64,000 nt of DNA, from positions 10,075 to 74,074 of the forward strand of contig DATIVB010000056.1 in NCBI GenBank assembly GCA_035466375.1, written 5' to 3'. The first letter of the stretch is position 1. Every line of letters begins with the position of its first letter. This document shows positions 1 to 64,000 of the stretch, piece by piece. A model generated the notes under the pieces. That model saw nothing but the letters and a program-made list of their open reading frames with translations, had not been told where the DNA came from and did not search any database. Source of the DNA: Chondromyces sp. Its GTDB lineage: Bacteria > Acidobacteriota > Thermoanaerobaculia > Thermoanaerobaculales > Sulfomarinibacteraceae. Made by a program: the position numbers and the translations under genes.

Positions 1-73
1 AATCCGAAATCCGAAATGGGCGGGCGGGCGGCATTCCGAATTCCTAATTCCGAATTCCGAATTTCGAATTTCC
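1..73. repeat. Window-truncated modular simple-repeat element. It has AATCCGA x2 (1-17), the G-tract GGGCGGGCGGGCGG (18-31), then six ATTCCGA/ATTCCTA/ATTTCGA-type 7-mers (32-73).
   Basis: Read directly from the sequence. It has the same architecture (short AT-richer tandem units plus a G3N1 tract) as the elements at 1646-1893 and 62993-63867. Confidence 0.8.
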
Positions 74-1639: not shown

Positions 1640-1645
1640 CGCGCC

Positions 1646-1693
1646 GAATTCAGAATGAGGAATGAGGAATGAGGAATGCCTCCCACCCCCGCC
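1646..1693. repeat. Left arm of a modular inverted-repeat element: GAATGAGG-type 8-mers x3-4, then the C-tract CCTCCCACCCCCGCC
   Basis: Tandem gaatgaggaatgaggaatgaggaatg followed by cctcccacccccgcc. It is an imperfect reverse complement of 1831-1877. Confidence 0.8.
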
Positions 1694-1830
1694 AGGGAGT
1701 CCAGGTTCGTCGGATCGGATGTTCTTATCCGGCTCGATGCGCCTCGAGGACGTAGACCAGAGCCCACCGTCTCTTGCGACACGTTGAACGGTTCTGTCTG
1801 CGAAAGTTGCGGACCACATGCACGTCCTCC

Positions 1831-1893
1831 GGGGGGAAGGTCGGGATTTCCTAATTCCTCATTCCTCATTCCTAACTCGGTCCGGGTGGGTGG
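1831..1893. repeat. Right arm of the modular inverted-repeat element. It has a G-tract (GGGGGGAAGGTCGGG), CCTCATT/CCTAATT-type repeats, then GGGTGGGTGG.
   Basis: atttcctaattcctcattcctcattcctaact is the complement type of the left-arm repeats. It is flanked by G-runs and abuts the TAGAAT box. Confidence 0.8.
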
Positions 1894-1899
1894 TAGAAT
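1891..1899 (+). promoter_or_regulatory. Extended -10 promoter motif TGGTAGAAT
   Basis: TGn + TAGAAT lies 86 nt upstream of the ATG at 1985. The same TGnTAGAAT is seen at 63898-63906, and a TAGAAT hexamer occurs on the minus strand at 15792-15797. Confidence 0.4.
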
Positions 1900-1984
1900 G
1901 CCCCCCGCCGCCGGTTCAGCTTTACCCGGCGGCGCATCCACCGGGGCGGGGCGCCCCAGCGGTGGACACCCCTGGAGGACAATC

Positions 1985-3307
1985 ATGGCTCGGACGAAGG
2001 TCGTCATCATGGGCGCGGCCGGCCGCGACTTCCACAATTTCAACTGCCTGTACCGCGACAACGAGGCCTACGAGGTCGTCGCGTTCACGGCCACCCAGAT
2101 TCCGGACATCGAGGGCCGCACCTACCCGGCGGAGCTCGCGGGCTCGCTCTACCCCGACGGCATCCCGATCCATCCCGAGTCGGACCTCGAATCGCTGGTC
2201 CGGGAGCACCACGTGGATGAGGTGTGGTTCAGCTACTCCGACGTGCCGCACACCTATGTCATGAACATCGCCAGCCAGGTGATCGCATGGGGCGCGCACT
2301 TCGGCGTGTGCTCGGCGACCAGGACCATGATCGAGTCGAGCCTGCCGGTGATCGCCGTGACCGCGGTGCGCACCGGCGTCGGCAAGTCGCAGACCACGCG
2401 CTACGTCTCCCGGCTGCTCAAGGCGATGGGCAAGAAGGTGGTCGCGATCCGCCACCCCATGCCCTACGGCGACCTCGCGAAGCAGGCCTGCCAGCGGTTC
2501 GAGAACTACGAGGACCTCGACCGCCACCAGTGCACCATCGAGGAGCGCGAGGAGTACGAGCCCCACATCGACAACGGCTTCGTCGTCTACGCGGGCGTAG
2601 ACTACGAGAAGATCGTCCGCGAGGCCGAGAAGGAGGCCGAGGTCATCCTCTGGGACGGCGGCAACAACGACACCCCCTTCTACCGCCCCGACCTCCACAT
2701 CACGCTCGTGGACCCCCACCGCGCCGGCCACGAGCTGAGCTACTACCCCGGCGAGACGAACCTCCGCATGGCCGACCTGCTGATCGTCAACAAGGTCGAC
2801 ACCGCCGACCCGGTCAAGGTCGAGCAGGTTCTCGACACCTGCCGCACCGCCAACCCCGGCGCGCGGGTCATCAAGTGCCGCTCGCTGATCACCGTCTCGC
2901 AGCCCGAGCTGATCGCCGGCAAGAAGGCGCTGGTCGTCGAGGACGGGCCGACCCTCACTCACGGCGGCATGAGTTACGGCGCCGGCTGGTTCGCGGCCAA
3001 GAACGCAGGCGCGGCCGAGATCGTCGACGCCCGTCCCTATGCCGTGGGCAGCATCAAGGAGACGTACGAGAAGTACCCCAACGCGGCCAAGATCCTGCCT
3101 GCGATGGGCTACGGCGACGCCCAGGTGCGGGAGCTCGAGGAGACCATCAACTCGACGCCGGCCGACGTGGTGGTCGAGGGGACCCCGATCCAACTGTCGC
3201 GGATCCTCAAGGTCAACAAGCCCATTGCCGACGTGACATACGAGCTCGAGGAGGTCGAGCCGGGGACCATTGAGGAGATGGTGGCGAAGGCCGTCTCCAA
3301 GGCCTGA
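1985..3307 (+). CDS. COG2403-type P-loop protein (cyclic 2,3-diphosphoglycerate synthetase-like / predicted GTPase family)
   Basis: The ATG at 1985 (MARTKVVIMGAAGRDFHNF) follows a GGAGG SD. There is a Rossmann-like N-terminus, and VRTGVGKSQTTRYVSRLLKAMGKKVVAIRHPMPYGD resembles the COG2403 family as I recall it. The family assignment is from memory and was not searched. The upstream part of the 1676 ORF is repeat sequence and is not coding. Confidence 0.65.
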   Translation: MARTKVVIMGAAGRDFHNFNCLYRDNEAYEVVAFTATQIPDIEGRTYPAELAGSLYPDGIPIHPESDLESLVREHHVDEVWFSYSDVPHTYVMNIASQVIAWGAHFGVCSATRTMIESSLPVIAVTAVRTGVGKSQTTRYVSRLLKAMGKKVVAIRHPMPYGDLAKQACQRFENYEDLDRHQCTIEEREEYEPHIDNGFVVYAGVDYEKIVREAEKEAEVILWDGGNNDTPFYRPDLHITLVDPHRAGHELSYYPGETNLRMADLLIVNKVDTADPVKVEQVLDTCRTANPGARVIKCRSLITVSQPELIAGKKALVVEDGPTLTHGGMSYGAGWFAAKNAGAAEIVDARPYAVGSIKETYEKYPNAAKILPAMGYGDAQVRELEETINSTPADVVVEGTPIQLSRILKVNKPIADVTYELEEVEPGTIEEMVAKAVSKA

Positions 3308-3313
3308 GCGGCG

Positions 3314-4192
3314 ATGGCGACCGCGTCGTCCCGCTGGGTGTCGGTGGTGCTGTGGGTGGCGGCGTTCGCCGTCACCGTCATGCTGGCCGTGTTCCAGCGG
3401 ATGACCGGCCCGAGCTACCCCCTGCGAGGAGTGCTGCAACTGGCCGACAGCAGCGAGATACGTTACCGGCTGCCGCGCTCCAGCCAGGGCCGGGACTCCC
3501 TCGTGATCTCGGTGCCGAGGCTGCCGGGGACCGACGCCGCGGTCCTCGAGTGGCGCCGCTATCCCACCGACGAGCCGTATCGGCGCCTGCCCATGTTCGG
3601 AACGGAGGACGGCAGCTTTCGAGCCGAGATCCCACGCCAACCCGCGGCCGGCAAGGTCGAGTACGTCGTGCGGCTCGCGGGCGCAGGCCACGAGCGAGTG
3701 CTGCCCGCGGGCGAGCCGGTGGTGGCGCGCTTCCGCGACCCGGTGCCGGCGGCCGTCCTGGTGCCGCACATCATCCTGATCTTCGGGAGCATGCTGGTCT
3801 CGACGCGCGCCCTGCTCGAGGTCCTCAGGCGAGGTGCGCCCACAGCGAGGGGGCTCGTCCTCGTCGCCATGGGGCTGCTGATCTTCGGCGGCCTGGTGCT
3901 CGGGCCCGTGGTGCAGAAGTTCGCCTTCGGCGCCTACTGGACCGGCTGGCCGCTGGGCACCGACCTCACCGACAACAAGACCCTGTGGGCCTTTCTCGCC
4001 TGGCTTCCGGCGACGGTCGTGGCGCTGAGCGGCCGGCGCACGCGGTGGGCGGTCGTGGTCGGCTGGGTGGTGATGATGGGCGTGTTCCTGATCCCACACA
4101 GCCTCCGCGGCTCCGAGCTCGACTGGTCGCAGCCATCGGCGGTCGGCGAGGCCGCCGGAGAGGGCGGCGCAGGAGACGTGACTCCGCAGTGA
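3314..4192 (+). CDS. Hypothetical integral membrane protein (N-terminal anchor, extracytoplasmic domain, C-terminal multi-TM region)
   Basis: 292-aa ORF 6 nt after the previous stop. Hydrophobic segments include VVLWVAAFAVTVMLAV, VLVPHIILIFGSMLV, LVLVAMGLLIFGGLVLG and VVGWVVMMGVFLI. No family was recognised. Confidence 0.7.
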   Translation: MATASSRWVSVVLWVAAFAVTVMLAVFQRMTGPSYPLRGVLQLADSSEIRYRLPRSSQGRDSLVISVPRLPGTDAAVLEWRRYPTDEPYRRLPMFGTEDGSFRAEIPRQPAAGKVEYVVRLAGAGHERVLPAGEPVVARFRDPVPAAVLVPHIILIFGSMLVSTRALLEVLRRGAPTARGLVLVAMGLLIFGGLVLGPVVQKFAFGAYWTGWPLGTDLTDNKTLWAFLAWLPATVVALSGRRTRWAVVVGWVVMMGVFLIPHSLRGSELDWSQPSAVGEAAGEGGAGDVTPQ

Positions 4193-18299: not shown

Positions 18300-19646
18300 T
18301 CAAGCCGCTCCGTCGCGGCGCTCCACCACCGGCAGCCTGCCGCCGCTCGGCGGGCGCTCGCCGGCGAGCGAGTGTGGCCCGGCGCGGAGGATGTTTACGT
18401 CGACAATCTCCCCCACCCCCTCGCGGCCCGTCTTGGGGAAGTTGACGATGCGGTTGTCCTCGCCCCTCCCCTGCCAGGTCCCGGGGTCGCGCCGGCTGTC
18501 GCCGTCGATCAGCACCGGCACCACCGCGCCCACGAGCTCCCGGTTGAGCTCGAGCGTGATCCGGTCGGTGAGCTCGAAGAGCCGATGCAGTCGGTCCTTC
18601 TTGACCCCCTCGGGCACCTGCAGCTCATAACGCGCAGCCGGCGTGCGCGGGCGCGGCGAGTAGGCGAAGGCGAAAACCTGGCCGAAGCGGACCGTCTCCA
18701 GCAGCTCCATGCTGCGGCTGAAGTCGGCCTCGTCCTCGCCCGGGAAGCCCACGATCACGTCGGTCGAGAGGTTGATGCCGGGCACGGCCTCGCGGAGCCG
18801 CGCCACCAGGTCCAGGTACTCCGCGCGCGTGGACCGCCGGTGCATCCGATCGAGAATGCGGTCGGATCCCGACTGGATCGGCAGGTGCAGGTAGCGTGAG
18901 ACCTTCGGGTTGGCGGCGAGGGTGTCGATGAGGCGCTGGTGGAAGTGGCGCGGATGGGAGGTGACGTAGCGCACCCGCTCGATCTCCTGGACCGCGGCGA
19001 CGTTGGCGAGCAGATCACTGAAGTCGGCGCCGGTCCGCGGGCAGCTGTAGGAGTTGATGGTCTGGCCGAGGAGCTCAACCTCTTTGAGGCCGGAATCGGC
19101 GAGCGCCTGCACCTCGCAAATGATGTCCGGCATGGGGCGGCTGAGCTCGCGCCCGCGGGTGTAGGGCACTACGCAGAAGGTGCAGAACTCGTTGCAGCCC
19201 TCGACCACGGTCACCATGCCGCGGGTCGGGCTGGAGCGGAAGTGGAGCTCGAAGTCGTGCTCCCGCTCGGGGTCGAAATCGATCAGCACCGGCCGGCCGC
19301 CGGTCGCGACCATGCGCAGCGCCTCCCCCACCCTGCCCACCGCTCCCGGGCCGAGCACGAAGCCGACCCGCTTCGAGCGCGCCAGCAACGAGTCGCCCTC
19401 CTGCTGTGCCACGCAGCCGCAGACGCCGATGAGCGGAGGTCGCGGGAGCTTCTCGAGGGCGCCGATCCGGCTGGTGATCTTGTGCACCGGGCGCTCGCGG
19501 ACCGAGCAGGTGTTGAGGATCACCAGGTCGGCGTCGTCGGCGGCCGCCGACGGGCTCAGGCCGTGTCGGCGGAGCTGTCCCTCGATCAGCTCGCTGTCGT
19601 GCTGATTCATCTGACAGCCCCAGGTTTCGATGAAATAGCTTCTCAT
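18300..19646 (-). CDS. miaB: tRNA-i6A37 methylthiotransferase MiaB
   Basis: It has the UPF0004 domain (FIETWGCQMNQHDSE), radical-SAM CNEFCTFCVVPYTRG and a C-terminal TRAM domain. The ATG at 19646 or 19652 could be the start. Confidence 0.93.
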   Translation of the reverse strand: MRSYFIETWGCQMNQHDSELIEGQLRRHGLSPSAAADDADLVILNTCSVRERPVHKITSRIGALEKLPRPPLIGVCGCVAQQEGDSLLARSKRVGFVLGPGAVGRVGEALRMVATGGRPVLIDFDPEREHDFELHFRSSPTRGMVTVVEGCNEFCTFCVVPYTRGRELSRPMPDIICEVQALADSGLKEVELLGQTINSYSCPRTGADFSDLLANVAAVQEIERVRYVTSHPRHFHQRLIDTLAANPKVSRYLHLPIQSGSDRILDRMHRRSTRAEYLDLVARLREAVPGINLSTDVIVGFPGEDEADFSRSMELLETVRFGQVFAFAYSPRPRTPAARYELQVPEGVKKDRLHRLFELTDRITLELNRELVGAVVPVLIDGDSRRDPGTWQGRGEDNRIVNFPKTGREGVGEIVDVNILRAGPHSLAGERPPSGGRLPVVERRDGAA

Positions 19647-60957: not shown

Positions 60958-62198
60958 ATGTCCCAGAAATCGGGGAAGGACTTGCCGACGCAGCTGCCGT
61001 CGTCGAGCGCGAGCGTGCCGCCTCCGAGCGCCGCGACCGCCATCGCCATCGCGATGCGGTGGTCACCGGCCGCGACCACCGGGCGCGGCGGCCCGGCGAT
61101 GCGCTCAAGACTGGAGACCACCACCAGGGTGGAATTCGTCACCCCGAGTTCGGCGCCCAACCGACCCAGGTTCTCGACCATCGTCCGCAGGCGGTCGCTC
61201 TCCTTGTAGGCGAGGTGTTCGAGGCCGCTCATCCTCGAGCCCGGCGGCACGCACGCGGCGACGGCTGCAAGCGCCGGAAAGAGGTCGGGCGTGTGACCAA
61301 GATCGGCCACGATCGGGCGCGTCAGAGGTCCGTGGGCCACGAGCCGGTCGCCCTCCCAGCCGAGGTCGAGCCCCGCCCCGCCGAGAATCTCGACGATCGC
61401 GCGGTCTCCCTGGCGGCTCGCGCGATGGAGCGGACCGACGGCGATGCGGCCCCCGGCGACGGCGACCGCCGCGAGCGCGAAGGCGGCGGCCGACCAGTCG
61501 CCCTCGACCGTGACTGCGGCCGGGCGCAGCGAGCCAGGCGGCACCGTCCAATGCCGCCGGTCCGCGCTCGCGAGGACCCCGCTGCCGAATGCTCGCAGCA
61601 CGTCCTCGGTCAGGTCGAGGTAGGGCGCCGACGGCAGAGGGCCCTCCACCACGAGATCGAGGCCCCTCCGCATCAAGGGCGCGGCGAGCAGCAGCGACGA
61701 CACGAACTGCGAGGAGGACTCAGGCCGCAGGGTGAGGGCGCCCCCCTCGAGCTCGGCACCTTCCACGGTAACCGGCAGGCGACCGCCGGTGCTCCTGATC
61801 CGGGCCCCGAGGGACGCCAGGGCATCACAGAGAGGCGACATCGGACGCTCGCGGAGGCGGGCGCTTCCGGTGATCGTCGCGCCCCCGGGCATGACGCACA
61901 GAAGGCCGAGAAGCAGCCGCGCTCCGGTTCCCGAGTCCGCCAGGTCGAGAACCGGAGGCTCGTCGGGGATCGTGCGCCCGCCCACCTCGACCGCCGAACC
62001 CCACTCGAGGTGCCAGCCCGCGGTGCGGAGCGCCTCCGCGAGGACCCGGGTGTCGTGGCAGTCCAGCGGCCGCTCGATGCGGCCGCCGCCGGAAGCCGCG
62101 GCCGCGATCAGGGCACGGTTGGTGATGCTCTTCGAGGTCGGCACCTCGACGTCTGCCGCGAGGCCCGACAGCGGCCCGGGCAGCACTCGGGGCTTCAC
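60924..62198 (-). CDS. aroA: 3-phosphoshikimate 1-carboxyvinyltransferase (EPSP synthase)
   Basis: The GTG at 62198 forms a GTGA overlap with the upstream stop. Motifs are VPTSKSITNRALIAAA, DCHDTRVLAEAL, GNSG-like DSGTGARLLLG and KESDRL. Confidence 0.93.
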   Translation of the reverse strand: MKPRVLPGPLSGLAADVEVPTSKSITNRALIAAAASGGGRIERPLDCHDTRVLAEALRTAGWHLEWGSAVEVGGRTIPDEPPVLDLADSGTGARLLLGLLCVMPGGATITGSARLRERPMSPLCDALASLGARIRSTGGRLPVTVEGAELEGGALTLRPESSSQFVSSLLLAAPLMRRGLDLVVEGPLPSAPYLDLTEDVLRAFGSGVLASADRRHWTVPPGSLRPAAVTVEGDWSAAAFALAAVAVAGGRIAVGPLHRASRQGDRAIVEILGGAGLDLGWEGDRLVAHGPLTRPIVADLGHTPDLFPALAAVAACVPPGSRMSGLEHLAYKESDRLRTMVENLGRLGAELGVTNSTLVVVSSLERIAGPPRPVVAAGDHRIAMAMAVAALGGGTLALDDGSCVGKSFPDFWDMWARLTELPPA

Positions 62199-62977
62199 GG
62201 CCCGGCCCCGACCGGTTCCAGCGGTACGTGGCCGTCGATCTCGAGCGGCAGTGGTTCGAATTCCGTGCCGACCAGGTTCATCTCCCCCGCCGCACCAACG
62301 ACCAGGCTGGTCCGGGTCTCGAGCCACGCCGGCATCACCAGGGCCATGCGCTCGCCGCGCCTGCACATCCACGGCGAGTGGAAGTGACCCCACAGCAGCA
62401 CGTCCACCCCGTCCGCCCAGGCCCTTTCGGCGCTGCGCTCGAGGTCCTGAACCGGCTTCATGGATCGGAAGCGTTGGTTCGTCTTGGCCAGATGACTCTC
62501 CATGTGGCGGACGATGGCCACCGCCAGGCCGCGCGGTAAGAGCCTGGCCCACAGGCGGGCGACGCCGGACTTCGAGACCGTCGACCAGAATCGGTACGCC
62601 AGGTCCCTGCGGTTGACGAGATCGCCGTGGACCAGCAGAAAGTGCCTGCCGCCGGAAGAAAAGCTCCTGCTGCGTCCGCTCCAGTCGAGCTCGGCTGCGA
62701 GCTCGGGCTCGTCGAGGAAGAAGTCGCGGTTGCCCTCCACCACGCCGATCTGAACGCCCTGCGTCCGCAGCTCCCGCCACACGACCAGCACCTCATACAC
62801 CGACGAGGTCCAGAACTTCGACATGCCGATCAGGTACTGGAAGGCGTCGCCGAGGTAGATGATCTCGCCGATGCCGCGCCGGGCGGCGAGCCGGAGATGG
62901 GCGTTCATGGCGGCCGCGTCGTCGTCCCCTTGGCCGACGTGCGAGTCTGCGATGATGAGACGTTGCACGCCGGCCAT
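62195..62977 (-). CDS. Calcineurin-like metallophosphoesterase (LpxH-like UDP-2,3-diacylglucosamine hydrolase family)
   Basis: ATG at 62977 (MAGVQRLIIADSHVG). Motifs are YLGDAFQYL, VEGNRDFF, LVHGDL and WGHFH. The upstream part of the 306-aa ORF lies in repeat sequence. Confidence 0.75.
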   Translation of the reverse strand: MAGVQRLIIADSHVGQGDDDAAAMNAHLRLAARRGIGEIIYLGDAFQYLIGMSKFWTSSVYEVLVVWRELRTQGVQIGVVEGNRDFFLDEPELAAELDWSGRSRSFSSGGRHFLLVHGDLVNRRDLAYRFWSTVSKSGVARLWARLLPRGLAVAIVRHMESHLAKTNQRFRSMKPVQDLERSAERAWADGVDVLLWGHFHSPWMCRRGERMALVMPAWLETRTSLVVGAAGEMNLVGTEFEPLPLEIDGHVPLEPVGAGP

Positions 62978-62992
62978 GGTAGCGCACGCCAG

Positions 62993-63219
62993 AACGTCGT
63001 GACACGTTCGAACGTTCAAACGTTGCACGTTCCGCCCACCCACCCAAAACCACAGAGGCACAGAGGGCACAGAGGGAACACAGAGCCGCCCACCCACCCA
63101 GAACCACGAAGACACCAGGTCACGAAGAAATCACGAAGGCCGCCCGCCCGCCCCAAAACGCAAAGGCGCAGAGGCGCAAAGCCCGACCAGCCCTCCACCC
63201 ACGCAAAGACGCTGCAGCG
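62993..63219. repeat. Left arm of a large modular inverted-repeat element. It has four to five blocks of 7-8-bp tandem repeats (ACGTTC-, CACAGAGG-, CACGAAG-, GCGCAAAG/GCGCAGAG-type) separated by C-tracts (CCGCCCACCCACCC and similar).
   Basis: Read directly. The C-tracts are at 63032-63045, 63086-63099, 63140-63154 and 63182-63200. The blocks are imperfect reverse complements, in mirrored order, of those at 63591-63849. Confidence 0.85.
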
Positions 63220-63590
63220 AGCCACGAGAGTTCAGCGGTGTGACGAGGTTTCCGGCCGTCGGACGGCCGGAAACCGCCGGGACGGGACTCCGTGTCGAAC
63301 CCGAGCGTTCGCCCCGGAGTCCCGCCCAGACGGCCCGCGCTCTCGAAGAGCGCAGGCCTCGCCAGTTGTCATCTTCAATCACGAGGATGGAGATGGGACC
63401 TTCTCTACCATTGACAGTGGGAAGGGCGAGAGGCAGAACCGCCGTGCCCCGGGCCCGGCGGCCGGTGAGAAGCGCGGCGACGACGAACGCTCGCGTTCGG
63501 AGCTCGCCGCGCTTATCACCGGCGGCAGGCGATCCGATCGCCTGCCGTTCTGCCGCCACACTGCGGAAGAGCGCCCCTCCCGGCACCAGT
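63220..63590. other. Hairpin-rich core between the two arms (possible structured RNA or DNA element)
   Basis: There is a perfect 12-bp stem GGTTTCCGGCCG/CGGCCGGAAACC (63247-63275). A 9-bp stem GGGACTCCG/CGGAGTCCC has a nested GAAC/GTTC stem (63284-63323). Further stems are GCGCTC/GAGCGC (63337-63353), CGAACGC/GCGTTCG (63484-63499) and the 11-bp GGCAGGCGATC/GATCGCCTGCC (63524-63546). Confidence 0.5.
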
Positions 63591-63867
63591 CCCTTTGCGT
63601 CTTTGCATCTTTGCGCCTTTGCGTCTTCTCGTTTTCGGGTGGGCGGGTGGCCTTCGTGAATCCTTTGTGACTTGGTGCCTTCGTGTTTCTGGGTGGGTGG
63701 GCGGCTCTGCGACTCTGCGCCTCTGCGCCTCTGCGTTTCCGGGTGGGTGGGGGGCCTTCGTGATTTCTTCGTGTCTTCGTGCCTTCGTGGTTGCGACGTG
63801 GGCGGATGGGTGGGAACGTGCAACGTTCGAACGTTCGAACGTTCCAACGATGGCGGGCGGGCGGGTG
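63591..63867. repeat. Right arm of the large modular inverted-repeat element. It has CTTTGCG-, CTTCGTG-, CTCTGCG-, CTTCGTG- and AACGTTCG-type tandem repeats separated by five G3N1 tracts.
   Basis: The G-tracts are GGGTGGGCGGGTGG (63637-50), GGGTGGGTGGGCGG (63691-704), GGGTGGGTGGGGGG (63741-54), GGGCGGATGGGTGGG (63800-14) and GGCGGGCGGGCGGGTG (63852-67). Their starts are spaced 50-59 bp apart. Confidence 0.85.
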
Positions 63868-63897
63868 CTCCCTGCTCCCCGGTTCGACGCTTCGGCT

Positions 63898-63906
63898 TGC
63901 TAGAAT
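63898..63906 (+). promoter_or_regulatory. Extended -10 promoter motif TGCTAGAAT
   Basis: TGn + TAGAAT lies 52 nt upstream of the ATG at 63958. It is the same motif as at 1891-1899 and lies directly downstream of the repeat element. Confidence 0.4.
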
Positions 63907-63957
63907 CCCGAAACCGGCGGCGCCGATCGCCGTACGAGTGCCAGGGAGGAAGCCGCA

Positions 63958-64000
63958 ATGAACGCACGTTTCTCGATTGTCATTCTTGCTGCCCTGCTCG
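63958..64000 (+). CDS. 5' end of a gene encoding a probable secreted or membrane protein (truncated by the window)
   Basis: The ATG is preceded by GGGAGGAAG. MNARFSIVILAALL looks like a signal peptide. Only 14 codons are visible. Confidence 0.5.
   Translation, partial: MNARFSIVILAALL

What the first reader, a model, noticed from the sequence alone, without database searches (positions are those of the whole stretch)
63637..63867. Five G3N1-type G-quadruplex-capable tracts on one strand, spaced about five helical turns apart
Seen in sequence: the five tracts are GGGTGGGCGGGTGG (63637), GGGTGGGTGGGCGG (63691), GGGTGGGTGGGGGG (63741), GGGCGGATGGGTGGG (63800) and GGCGGGCGGGCGGGTG (63852). All are on the plus strand, with start-to-start spacings of 54, 50, 59 and 52 bp. 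Mirror-image C-tracts lie at 63032, 63086, 63140 and 63182. The same motif occurs at 18-31 (GGGCGGGCGGGCGG) and 1884-1893 (GGGTGGGTGG). I did not notice it inside any coding region of the window.

Established knowledge: G3 runs separated by single-nucleotide loops form unusually stable parallel G-quadruplexes in vitro.

Inference: the strand-asymmetric, phased placement just upstream of promoters suggests a structural or regulatory role, or recognition by a dedicated protein, rather than GC-rich noise.
Basis: partly seen in the sequence, partly recalled or inferred. Interest (0 to 1): 0.6.

Follow-up and report, generated by a model that had tools for sequence, protein, structure and literature searches.

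The report
Mirror-image mosaic repeat, not G4 array
The five G-rich tracts are real, but they are one arm of a roughly 870-base mirror-image repeat built from G-tracts alternating with short tandem 7-8-base repeats, a member of an apparently undescribed REP/BIME-like family of intergenic repeats in Thermoanaerobaculia-type Acidobacteria, and none of them is a canonical G-quadruplex motif.

Summary
The tracts sit at the stated coordinates, and exact GGGYGGGYGGGYGG occurs 6 times against 0.08 expected, always between genes.

Each tract alternates with a tandem array of 7-8-mers (CTTTGCGT, CCTTCGTG, CTCTGCGC, AACGTTCG). The whole right arm (63590-63870) is the reverse complement of the C-tract arm (63004-63220). 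Together, 62995-63875 folds as one giant hairpin (z = -19), while each arm alone is unstructured.

The same architecture recurs at 1-70 and 1640-1900 and in many Thermoanaerobaculia/'Holophagae' MAGs. It lies in intergenic DNA, often directly upstream of conserved extended -10-like motifs. It turns over fast: a relative with 98% identity in the flanking protein lacks the big element.

In relatives, the G-tract is the 3' tail of GT(A/G)G-tagged GC-rich hairpins arranged head-to-head. This is the REP/BIME hallmark, and it explains why G-tracts always point outward.

None of the tracts fits the canonical four-run G4 motif. They carry three GGG runs plus one GG, and only 20 of 68 family tracts have four GGG runs. 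G4Hunter hits in the window are not enriched.

Verdict: a real feature and a new variant of a known kind (REP/BIME-like mosaic repeats). The G4 reading is weak and the function is unproven.

The parts
62195..62977 (-). Left flanking gene: an LpxH-like metallophosphoesterase of 260 aa. Its ATG lies at 62977-62975, and the C-tract arm lies directly upstream of it.
   Evidence: Translation. Homologs are named UDP-2,3-diacylglucosamine hydrolase and carry Pfam Metallophos.
63004..63220 (-). Left arm. Read outward on the minus strand it runs: degenerate G-tract, CTTTGCG/CTCTGCG array, G-tract, CTTCGTG array, G-tract, CTCTGTG array, G-tract, AACGTT array.
   Evidence: TRF arrays at 63004-32, 63051-80 and 63159-81. 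Exact tracts at 63032, 63086 and 63140 on the minus strand. Inverted repeats I1-I6 match it to the right arm at 83-97%.
63032..63045 (-). G-tract GGGTGGGTGGGCGG (seen as a C-tract on the plus strand).
63086..63099 (-). G-tract GGGTGGGTGGGCGG.
63140..63154 (-). G-tract GGGGCGGGCGGGCGG.
63182..63202 (-). Degenerate innermost tract (GTGGGTGGAGGGCTGGTCGGG on the minus strand).
   Evidence: Sequence. Repeat family D4.
63221..63589 (.). Non-repeated core. It contains GC-rich local hairpins at 63247-63275 (14-bp stem), 63274-63333, 63340-63356, 63455-63529 and 63523-63545. It has no Rfam match and no copy elsewhere in the window or in the fetched loci, except the ortholog L120.
   Evidence: Inverted repeats I7, I10 and I21. 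Fold. BLAST finds it unique. Rfam. The hairpin 63247-75 is conserved in L120.
63590..63870 (+). Five G-tracts alternate with arrays of CTTTGCGT x4.4, CCTTCGTG-like, CTCTGCGC x4.4, CTTCGTG x3 and AACGTTCG x4.6. It includes a 104-bp two-unit higher-order repeat.
   Evidence: TRF. Direct repeat D1, 63597-63688 against 63701-63792, at 79%. Pairing with the left arm.
63637..63650 (+). G-tract 1, GGGTGGGCGGGTGG.
63691..63704 (+). G-tract 2, GGGTGGGTGGGCGG.
63741..63754 (+). G-tract 3, GGGTGGGTGGGGGG.
63800..63814 (+). G-tract 4, GGGCGGATGGGTGGG (contains a bulge).
63852..63867 (+). G-tract 5, GGCGGGCGGGCGGGTG.
63898..63906 (+). Extended -10-like TGcTAGAAT, lying 30 nt after the last tract (63868-63897) and 52 nt before the ATG at 63959. 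This is an inferred promoter with no ortholog support.
   Evidence: Sequence. It has the same form as the conserved GGTGGTAGAAT at 1890-1900. The consensus scan found no sigma-70 site.
1..70 (+). Second site, cut by the window edge: (AATCCGA) array, GGGCGGGCGGGCGG at 18-31, then (ATTCCGA)5.4. It ends 10 nt before the conserved TGcTATCCT of guaA.
   Evidence: Ortholog alignment A2.
1640..1900 (+). Third site, a small complete element between guaA and the next gene: (GAATGAG)3.7, C-tract at 1679-1693, a 155-nt unique core, (TTCCTCA)3.7, then GGGTGGGTGG at 1884-1893 fused to the invariant GGTGGTAGAAT.
   Evidence: Fold z = -3.4. Orthologs. The core is unique.

Best explanation
**What it is.** The five G-tracts are the G-rich 'tail' or punctuation modules of one arm of a mosaic, quasi-palindromic intergenic repeat. 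It belongs to a REP/BIME-like family specific to Thermoanaerobaculia/'Holophagae'-type Acidobacteriota.

A module is a (GGGY)3GG tract plus a tandem array of three to six 7-8-mers that are AT-richer than the genome. One to five modules form an arm. Two arms lie in inverted orientation around a non-conserved core that carries GC-rich hairpins. G-tracts always read outward.

**Shown here.**
- The architecture and its recurrence across genomes.
- The outward polarity of the G-tracts.
- Inter-arm complementarity.
- The intergenic location, frequently abutting conserved extended -10-like motifs.
- Very fast turnover.
- In relatives, the same tract is the 3' tail of GT(A/G)G-tagged hairpins arranged head-to-head.

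**Inferred mechanism.**
- The elements arise and spread the way REPs/REPINs do, by a RAYT/TIRYT-type HUH tyrosine transposase acting on single-stranded hairpin DNA.
- Arrays grow and change by replication slippage and are homogenised within an array.
- The two arms are kept alike by intra-strand (quasi-palindrome) correction or gene conversion.
- Physically, the dominant alternative structure is C-arm:G-arm pairing in single-stranded DNA or in read-through RNA, not a quadruplex.
- Any host effect is most likely that of other REP/BIME elements. They would act as a transcription-unit boundary and as an easily melted, AT-richer upstream region for -35-less promoters.
For: **Architecture in the window.**
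- Tracts alternate with period-7/8 arrays.
- The arms are inverted repeats of 101 nt at 87% and 80 nt at 86%.
- 62995-63875 folds as one hairpin, -319.5 kcal/mol against -196.9 +/- 6.4 for shuffles, z = -19.
- Each arm alone gives z = +0.83 and -0.33.

**Family.**
- In the genome scan, G-tract pairs with tandem-7/8-mer spacers occur only in Thermoanaerobaculia, Holophagae or Acidobacteria MAGs.
- An independent metagenome sample gave 14 of 18 loci with the same design.
- I found 108 arrays with a median length of 29 nt. 53 of 56 clusters are intergenic, in all gene orientations.
- Words such as AAATCCG, AATGAGG, AAAACTC and AACGTTCG are shared among MAGs.

**Polarity.**
- Every inverted-word pair that has tracts on both arms reads 5'-C...G-3': 6 such pairs, plus 2 pairs that carry only a G-tract, on the 3' arm. 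No pair shows the reverse order with both tracts.
- In viral contigs the two orders occur 7 and 17 times, all as plain stem-loops.

**REP link.**
- A GT[AG]G tag precedes 13 of 18 GC-rich hairpins that are followed by a G-tract, against 61 of 662 other hairpins (p = 6e-10).
- L103 is a BIME-like cluster of at least 10 GTAG hairpins, each with a GGGYGGGYGGGYGG tail.
- L150 and L156 are head-to-head dimers with the tails pointing outward.
- L084, a guaA ortholog at 77% identity, combines GTAG hairpins, G tails and 7/8-mer arrays in one element. That element sits at the position orthologous to window 1640-1900.
- The literature defines REPs by a GTAG tag, stems of 5-13 bp, predominant head-to-head dimers and frequent clusters. 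It records GTGG variants and RAYT-like genes in Acidobacteria (PMC3733652).

**Position and turnover.**
- Arrays lie directly upstream of invariant TGnTAnnnT motifs in 5-6 orthologs, while the words differ.
- The core is replaced at 97% GuaA identity.
- The big element is absent from a relative at 98% LpxH-like identity and present at 87%.
- Contigs of close relatives break inside the arms.
Against: - The five tracts in the window have no GT(A/G)G-tagged hairpin next to them. The REP link rests on more distant family members and on degenerate hairpins in the core.
- In the metagenome sample, only about 2 of 14 tracts are adjacent to a hairpin.
- No RAYT/TIRYT gene was seen in any sequence in hand. 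The gene between the L103 clusters is CapD-like.
- The cores are unique and no target-site duplication was found, so mobility is not shown.
- Mismatches between the arms show no strand bias (G:T 8 against A:C 11). Nothing therefore points to selection on an RNA hairpin.
- Arms are sometimes non-complementary (L156) or unpaired (L115, L116), so pairing is not obligatory.
- The loci came from motif searches or from orthologs of element-bearing sites, so abundance per genome is not measured.
Confidence: 0.6

Rival explanations
1. **G-quadruplex regulatory array.** The tracts fold into parallel or guanine-vacancy quadruplexes on the non-template strand upstream of outward-facing promoters. The flanking AT-richer arrays melt under transcription-generated negative supercoiling to allow this. 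The folded tracts then tune transcription or are read by a G4-binding protein.
For: - The tracts are strongly over-represented and exclusively intergenic.
- The G-rich strand is always the one reading toward the adjacent gene.
- Each arm alone has no competing Watson-Crick structure.
- Loops are almost always single pyrimidines (T 99, C 83, A 14).
- Three GGG runs plus one GG is the sequence form of guanine-vacancy quadruplexes described in PMC8682790.
- G-rich heptamer repeats that fold into G4 are known in Xanthomonas and Nostoc (PMC4692102).
Against: - No tract matches G3+N1-7 x4. G4Hunter(25) barely reaches 1.5 at one tract, and the window has fewer G4Hunter regions than simulations.
- Only 20 of 68 family tracts have four GGG runs, and 13 have only three runs.
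- Arrays persist without tracts in L115-L117.
- The exact C-tracts of the left arm align with G-tracts of the right arm.
- The tracts are explained as tails of REP-like units.
Confidence: 0.12
2. **Protein-binding arrays.** The tandem 7-8-mers are cooperative binding sites for a ribbon-helix-helix-type or nucleoid-associated protein. One dimer would bind per heptad or octad, as in the omega/parS heptads of pSM19035 or MetJ met-boxes. The G-tracts would act as spacers or as a second protein's site. The inverted arms would give a symmetric nucleoprotein complex over promoter-upstream DNA.
For: - Unit sizes of 7 and 8 bp, and 3-6 copies per array, match known heptad and octad operators (PMC9499535; the MetJ comparison is from my own knowledge).
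- Array length is narrowly distributed, with an interquartile range of 23-33 nt.
- Arrays sit at about -20 to -60 of conserved -10-like motifs in 5-6 orthologs.
- Each word family has a fixed orientation relative to the core.
- Geobacter metallireducens has paired tandem 7-9-mer sites on opposite strands that were interpreted as global-regulator or IHF/HU sites (PMC2700814).
Against: - Dozens of different words occur, several within one arm.
- At the same promoter (guaA) the word differs among orthologs: ATTCCGA, AAATTCA, CTCACCTT. This argues against a sequence-specific operator.
- Elements also face gene 3' ends and lie between convergent genes.
- No candidate protein was identified.
Confidence: 0.15
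3. **Host-selected boundary element.** The elements persist because they insulate transcription units. RNA entering an element from either side carries the C-tract arm first, which is Rho-loading-like, C-rich and G-poor at the tracts. It then pairs with the G-arm into a long hairpin that stops or stabilises the upstream transcript. Meanwhile the outward-facing arm supplies an AT-richer, UP-like, easily melted region for an extended -10 promoter.
For: - The left arm begins within about 15 nt of the guaA stop codon in five guaA orthologs. In four of them (all but L116) the right arm ends at the next gene's -10-like motif.
- The minimal element L110 4282-4379 is a roughly 45-bp hairpin followed by CCTTTTC.
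- No canonical intrinsic terminators are found in these intergenic regions, so another device may be in use.
- Promoters here look -35-less, of the form TGnTAnnnT.
- REPs are documented to affect mRNA stability and termination (PMC3733652).
Against: - The largest element lies between divergent genes, where no terminator is needed.
- The GC clamp is at the top of the stem rather than at its base next to a U-tract, unlike intrinsic terminators.
- The elements are dispensable: L119 and L116 lack an arm or the whole element.
- No strand bias of G:T mismatches is seen.
- No transcript data are available.
Confidence: 0.25

Closest known systems
REP / BIME / REPIN elements (GTAG-tagged repetitive extragenic palindromes; PMC3733652)
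   Same: - Abundant and strictly intergenic.
- GC-rich hairpins tagged GT(A/G)G at one end (13 of 18 in relatives).
- Head-to-head dimers and clusters with alternating orientation (L103, L084, L150, L156).
- Mosaic with other short motifs, as in BIMEs.
- Strain-to-strain presence or absence.
- Cause breaks in assemblies.
   Different: - The tail at the untagged end is a 10-15-nt (GGGY)n tract rather than 0-3 nt.
- Most tracts are flanked by tandem 7-8-mer arrays rather than hairpins.
- Arms can reach 200-280 bp with up to five modules.
- GTAG REPs were not listed for Acidobacteria in that survey.
- No RAYT has been linked here.
Paired tandem-repeat 'global regulator sites' of Geobacter metallireducens (PMC2700814)
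   Same: - Three to five tandem 7-9-mers (TCTCCGTS[Y], MTYCTGA).
- Occur as pairs on opposite strands at variable distance.
- Lie in intergenic DNA.
- Function unknown.
   Different: - A few fixed consensus classes rather than many words.
- No G-tract punctuation.
- A different phylum.
- Interpreted there as IHF/HU-type binding sites.
Heptanucleotide tandem repeats: cyanobacterial STRR (from my own knowledge) and TAACTGA repeats of Beggiatoaceae, Cyanobacteria and Bacteroidetes (PMC4679880)
   Same: - Tandem heptamers, typically 2-6 copies.
- Intergenic and close to gene starts.
- Shared among distantly related genomes.
   Different: - One word per family.
- Located within a few nucleotides of start codons, so presumably acting in RNA.
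- No inverted partner arm, no G-tracts and no hairpins.
GGGNATC G4-forming heptamer repeats of Xanthomonas and Nostoc (PMC4692102)
   Same: - G-rich intergenic simple repeats with G4 potential.
- Placed in a strand-biased way near gene ends.
   Different: - There the G-runs are part of the heptamer, four units are preferred, and G4 folding was shown by CD.
- Here the tract is (GGGY)3GG with 1-nt loops, usually one G short of four full runs, and it alternates with non-G arrays.
Foldback (FB) transposons of Drosophila (from my own knowledge)
   Same: Long inverted terminal arms that are themselves made of short tandem repeats, around a variable middle segment.
   Different: - Eukaryotic and kilobase-scale, with demonstrated transposition.
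- No homology to this family, and no evidence of transposition here.

Membership tests
Canonical intramolecular G-quadruplex motif | Four runs of at least 3 G separated by loops of 1-7 nt. | tested here: not met
   The regex finds 6 hits in the window. None overlaps a tract. One lies in the core on the minus strand at 63312-63336, and the others are at 19325, 31740, 33224, 47539 and 55890. No hit is found with loops of 1-3 nt.
Canonical intramolecular G-quadruplex motif | G4 propensity above background (G4Hunter). | tested here: not met
   With window 25 and threshold 1.5 there are 42 regions, against 59 +/- 9 in Markov-1 simulations. Only 63730-63765 among the tracts reaches 1.52-1.56.
Guanine-vacancy / two-tetrad G-quadruplex | Three GGG runs plus one GG run with short loops. 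| tested here: met
   The sequences at 63637, 63691, 63800 (bulged), 63852, 18 and the three minus-strand tracts fit by sequence.
Guanine-vacancy / two-tetrad G-quadruplex | Folding in K+, with fill-in by guanine derivatives. | not testable with these tools
   This needs CD, NMR or DMS footprinting. The concept is described in PMC8682790.
GTAG-type REP | GTAG (or GTRG/GTGG) tetranucleotide at one end of the palindrome. | tested here: inconclusive
   - Relatives: 13 of 18 hairpins that precede a G-tract are tagged, against 9% of other hairpins (p = 6e-10).
- Window: the five tracts have no adjacent tagged hairpin. The core hairpin at 63247-75 is preceded only by GTGAcga.
GTAG-type REP | Short GC-rich stem-loop (stem 5-13 bp, loop 2-20 nt). 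| tested here: inconclusive
Such stem-loops are present in the window core at 63247-75, 63340-56 and 63523-45. In relatives they lie next to tracts.
GTAG-type REP | Head-to-head dimers or clusters in alternating orientation. | tested here: met
   L150 and L156 are head-to-head dimers, and L103 and L084 are clusters. The C...G polarity holds in all scorable pairs.
GTAG-type REP | Many copies per genome. | not testable with these tools
   Only 64 kb of this genome is available. There are three sites in the window and at least 10 units in 8 kb of L103.
GTAG-type REP | Cognate RAYT (IS200/IS605-like Y1 transposase) in the genome. | not tested
   I ran no RAYT search on the window or the loci. The one gene I examined, between the L103 clusters, is CapD-like. 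Acidobacterial RAYT-like TIRYT genes are reported in PMC3733652.
CRISPR array | Direct repeats of about 23-50 nt separated by unique spacers, all in one orientation. | tested here: not met
   The repeat is 14 nt. The spacers are low-complexity tandem 7-8-mers, and the two halves are in inverted orientation.
MITE | Near-identical copies with conserved internal sequence, terminal inverted repeats and a target-site duplication. | tested here: not met
   The cores have no match in the window or in the fetched loci. The core hairpin has no hit in the metagenome scan. No duplication was recognised.
Intrinsic terminator | GC-rich hairpin followed by a U-run. | tested here: not met
   No sites were found in 62800-64000 or in 1-2100.
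Known structured RNA (Rfam 15) | Match to a covariance model at the gathering score. | tested here: not met
   No hits in the window at gathering score. Only sub-threshold generic hairpin matches appear at E up to 1.
Heptamer simple-sequence repeats (STRR-like) | Tandem 7-nt units in non-coding DNA. | tested here: met
   TRF finds period-7/8 arrays at 1-70, 1653-78, 1848-73 and 63004-63849.

The most novel reading that the evidence does not exclude
The (GGGY)3GG tail is a functional single-strand signal of a new REP class. It would fold into a guanine-vacancy or two-tetrad quadruplex next to the REP hairpin when the DNA is single-stranded, or in RNA. That structure would be what a dedicated protein recognises, either a RAYT/TIRYT-type transposase or a host factor. 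The tail-plus-heptad modules would then have been co-opted as a modular, rapidly evolving promoter-upstream architecture across Thermoanaerobaculia.
Probability: 0.12. Interest if true: 0.75.

Novelty: new variant of a known kind. Interest (0 to 1): 0.45.

Why it matters
**Genome biology.** If confirmed genome-wide, this would be a new, structurally elaborate class of bacterial interspersed repeats. It combines a REP-like hairpin, a G-tract tail and tandem 7-8-mer arrays in foldback arrangement, in a poorly studied and largely uncultured acidobacterial lineage.

**Practical consequences.**
- These elements break metagenome assemblies. Contigs of close relatives end inside the arms.
- They coincide with at least one difference in gene order between close relatives.
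- They occupy promoter-upstream DNA of housekeeping genes such as guaA.
- They therefore matter for MAG quality, for promoter annotation and for understanding genome plasticity in this group.

**A caution.** Short G-tracts with single-nucleotide loops can be tails of mobile-type repeats rather than selected quadruplexes.

Tried and rejected
- **Exact look-up of the window's GuaA.** It is not on record. I used homologs instead.
- **Rfam.** Nothing at gathering score or at E up to 1 beyond generic hairpins. There are no tRNA or tmRNA genes.
- **Sigma-70 promoter and intrinsic terminator scans.** Both found nothing in the element-bearing regions.
- **Mobile element with a conserved core.** Rejected. 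BLAST of both cores against the window and the loci fetched up to that point gave only self hits. The core hairpin is found only in the ortholog L120 and has no hit in the metagenome scan.
- **RNA-level selection on one strand.** The G:T against A:C mismatch test between arms gave 8 against 11, so there is no bias.
- **Viral contigs.** Both tract polarities occur there, but only as plain GC stem-loops without heptamers. The family is absent, so this served only as a control.
- **RAYT between the REP clusters of L103.** The gene there is CapD-like. In L084 the gene beside the element encodes a small membrane protein.
- **CRISPR-like reading.** Rejected because the repeat is 14 nt, the spacers are low-complexity and the arms are mirrored.
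- **Replication origin or iteron reading.** Rejected because the design recurs at many loci.
- **Sequence-specific operator for guaA.** Weakened, because the word differs among orthologs at a fixed position.
- **Simple inversion of the big element between the window and L120.** Considered and rejected. The conserved core hairpins have the same orientation toward the LpxH-like gene in both.
- **Literature.** Searches for this acidobacterial family found nothing.
Full report
**1. The observation**

The pattern GGGYGGGYGGGYGG occurs six times in the 64-kb window, against 0.08 expected from dinucleotide shuffles. All six copies lie in two intergenic regions. With one mismatch allowed the excess vanishes and the extra hits fall in genes. 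So the specific motif is non-random, not G-richness in general.

The C-tracts at 63032, 63086 and 63140 are exact complements. The one at 63182 is degenerate.

**2.

Between every pair of tracts lies a tandem array of 7-8-mers. In the right arm these are CTTTGCGT x4.4, a degenerate CCTTCGTG array, CTCTGCGC x4.4, CTTCGTG x3 and AACGTTCG x4.6. The complementary words occur in the left arm.

The left arm (63004-63220) and the right arm (63590-63870) are inverted repeats of each other, for example 101 nt at 87%. Folded as a single strand, 62995-63875 forms one giant hairpin at -319.5 kcal/mol, against -196.9 +/- 6.4 for shuffles (z = -19). Each arm alone is no more structured than its shuffles (z = +0.83 and -0.33).

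The element fills a 981-bp gap between two divergent genes. One is an LpxH-like gene on the minus strand that starts at 62977. The other is on the plus strand and starts at 63959.

Two further sites in the window have the same design:
- 1-70, upstream of guaA and cut by the window edge.
- 1640-1900, between guaA and the next gene. There (GAATGAG)n plus a C-tract faces (CTCATTC)n plus a G-tract.

**3. The family**

GuaA and LpxH-like homologs place the window in Thermoanaerobaculales or 'Holophagae'-labelled MAGs of the Acidobacteriota.

A scan of one genome per species for two G-tracts 30-50 nt apart returned many GC-rich genomes. Spacers made of AT-richer tandem 7-8-mers occurred only in Thermoanaerobaculia, Holophagae or Acidobacteria MAGs.

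The minimal element is a hairpin: array, C-tract, short loop, G-tract, complementary array. Examples are L110 4282-4379 and L031 2022-2152.

Across about 25 loci I found 108 arrays with a median length of 29 nt and an interquartile range of 23-33. Of 56 clusters, 53 are intergenic. They occur between co-directional, divergent and convergent genes.

The same words recur in different MAGs: AAATCCG, AATTCCG, AATGAGG, AAAACTC and AACGTTCG.

An independent metagenome sample was selected only by one tract plus AACGTT. It gave 14 of 18 loci with the same architecture, including nested palindromes.

**4. Polarity**

Wherever both arms carry tracts, the order on either strand is 5'-C-tract arm ... G-tract arm-3', so the G-rich strand reads outward from the core. 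This held in six pairs with tracts on both arms. Two further pairs carry only a G-tract, on the 3' arm. No pair shows the reverse order with both tracts.

Word families also keep one orientation relative to the core.

As a control, viral contigs hold both orders (7 against 17). All of those are ordinary GC stem-loops without arrays.

**5. The link to REP/BIME elements**

In several family members the G-tract directly follows a GC-rich hairpin that is preceded by GTAG or GTGG:
- L031, L047, L150, L156 and L165.
- L084, which has four units.
- L103, which is a dense cluster of at least 10 units of the form ttGTAGG-CGCGGGCTTCAGCCCGCG-GGGYGGGYGGGYGG, interleaved with inverted hairpins.

The tag is present at 13 of 18 hairpins followed by a G-tract, against 61 of 662 other GC-rich hairpins (p = 6e-10).

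L150 and L156 are head-to-head dimers: C-tail, hairpin, CCAC ... GTGG, hairpin, G-tail. This reproduces the outward polarity.

L084 is a sixth guaA ortholog, at 77% identity. Downstream of guaA it carries, in a single element, tagged hairpins with G tails, a (CGTCTCC)3 array, a further G-tract and an (ACCTCCTC)10 array that runs up to the next gene. This is the position orthologous to window 1640-1900.

These are the defining traits of GTAG-type REPs and their BIME-like clusters. The survey PMC3733652 lists a GTAG tag with GTRG and GTGG variants, stems of 5-13 bp, predominant head-to-head dimers and frequent clusters. It did not list GTAG REPs for Acidobacteria, but it did report RAYT-like 'TIRYT' genes there.

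In the window, the hairpins are confined to the core (63247-75, 63340-56, 63523-45) and are degenerate.

**6. Position relative to genes, and turnover**

In five orthologous loci (82-97% GuaA identity) heptamer arrays end 8-11 nt before an invariant TCTGYTATYCT upstream of guaA. In four of the five they also run up to an invariant GGTGGTAGAAT upstream of the next gene. In L084 three array-plus-tract modules abut TTATCAT, 6 nt before the guaA ATG.

Both conserved motifs have the extended -10 form TGnTAnnnT. No -35 can be placed, and the consensus scan finds no sigma-70 site. The position is conserved while the words differ (ATTCCGA, AAATTCA, CTCACCTT).

Turnover is fast:
- At 97% GuaA identity, the core and the words of the guaA-downstream element are completely different.
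- A relative with 98% LpxH-like identity has only a 55-bp gap with a short AACGTT remnant and a different upstream neighbour.
- An 87% relative has the element, including the core hairpin.
- Relatives at 78% and 72% have a small AACGTT palindrome with a tract.
- Contigs of close relatives end inside the arms.

**7. The quadruplex question**

Every tract in the window has three GGG runs plus one GG. None matches the canonical four-run motif. The six canonical hits in the window lie elsewhere, and none overlaps a tract.

G4Hunter with a 25-nt window reaches 1.5 at only one tract. The window as a whole has fewer such regions (42) than Markov simulations give (59 +/- 9).

In the family, 20 of 68 tracts have four or more GGG runs, 24 have three GGG runs plus one GG, and 13 have only three runs. 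Loops are T or C in 182 of 196 cases.

A guanine-vacancy or two-tetrad quadruplex is compatible with the sequence (PMC8682790) but cannot be tested here. In the paired-arm conformation, the G-tracts that have a C-tract counterpart in the other arm would be base-paired.

**8. Interpretation**

The best-supported description is a REP/BIME-like mosaic repeat family in which the (GGGY)3GG tract is the tail or punctuation module.

The following steps are inferred, not shown:
- Generation or mobilisation by a REP-type HUH transposase.
- Growth and homogenisation of arrays by slippage. Two observations support this. The right arm has a 104-bp two-unit duplication in which all copies of CTTTGCG have become CTCTGCG. 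Array copy number also differs between the window and L114.
- Inter-arm correction.
- A boundary or promoter-upstream role.

The rivals are a G4 switch, heptad- or octad-binding proteins, and a host-selected terminator or UP-like boundary element. Each is given in the report with its evidence.

The mismatch spectrum between the arms shows no strand bias, so nothing singles out an RNA hairpin.

**9. Limits**

- Only 64 kb of this genome is available.
- The related loci were chosen by motif or as orthologs of element-bearing sites, so copy number per genome is unknown.
- No RAYT gene was seen.
- No expression or biophysical data exist.
- Literature searches found no description of this family. 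The nearest reports are the paired tandem 7-9-mer sites of Geobacter metallireducens (PMC2700814), TAACTGA heptamers (PMC4679880) and GGGNATC repeats (PMC4692102).

Noticed in passing
window 1894-1984 (and L114-L117 orthologs): A conserved 5' leader of about 90 nt lies between the invariant GGTGGTAGAAT and the ATG of a 440-aa protein that has no Pfam hit. It contains an invariant CCGGTTCAGCTTYACCCGGCGG hairpin. RNAalifold predicts 20 pairs, 6 of them with compensatory changes. It has no Rfam match, so it may be an undescribed cis-regulatory RNA.
   Followed up: partly
L010, L014, L018, L024, L028, L032, L040, L053, L064, L075, L077, L083, L091, L099, L112 (Streptomyces genomes): A separate repeat family. 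A conserved spacer of about 37 nt (GAAAGCTTGTTCGTCCAGGGGCGGATGCGGGGTGATC and variants) is bracketed by GGGYGGGYGGG tracts, and it recurs in many Streptomyces species.
   Followed up: no
L001, L011, L019, L022, L087, L089: Long pure (GGGT)n microsatellites occur in unrelated genomes (Dehalococcoidia, Paenibacillus, Longimicrobiales, Micromonospora, Rugamonas). There are more than 30 copies in L089, and several lie at the edges of the fetched 8-kb loci.
   Followed up: no
L119 compared with window 62978-63958: A relative with 98% LpxH-like identity has a co-directional aminotransferase-like gene 55 bp upstream, in place of the 981-bp element and the divergent gene. The element therefore marks a difference in gene order between very close relatives.
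   Followed up: partly
L120, L121, L122 (starts of contigs): Three independent assemblies of an 87% relative end at different points inside the arm (in the core, in the CTTCGTG array and in the AACGTT array). The repeats therefore fragment short-read assemblies.
   Followed up: partly
L103 (reverse strand 1-420 and 2700-3800): BIME-like clusters of GTAG-tagged hairpins with GGGYGGGYGGGYGG tails and inverted partner hairpins lie on both sides of a CapD-like polysaccharide biosynthesis gene.
   Followed up: partly
window 63312-63336 (minus strand): The only canonical four-run G4 motif near the finding (GGGCCGTCTGGGCGGGACTCCGGGG) lies in the core, next to the hairpin at 63340-63356, and not in the arms.
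   Followed up: no
window 63411-63416: A perfect TTGACA lies near the centre of the core, with a near-mirror ATGACA on the opposite strand at 63366-63371. No acceptable -10 follows either one. Divergent promoters in the core would put the G-tract arms into 5' UTRs, but this is untested.
   Followed up: no
L117 21144-21221 and L084 5032-5114: Unusually long arrays for this family: (GGGAGAAG)9.8 at 100% match in L117 and (ACCTCCTC)10.4 in L084, against a family median of about 4 copies.
   Followed up: no
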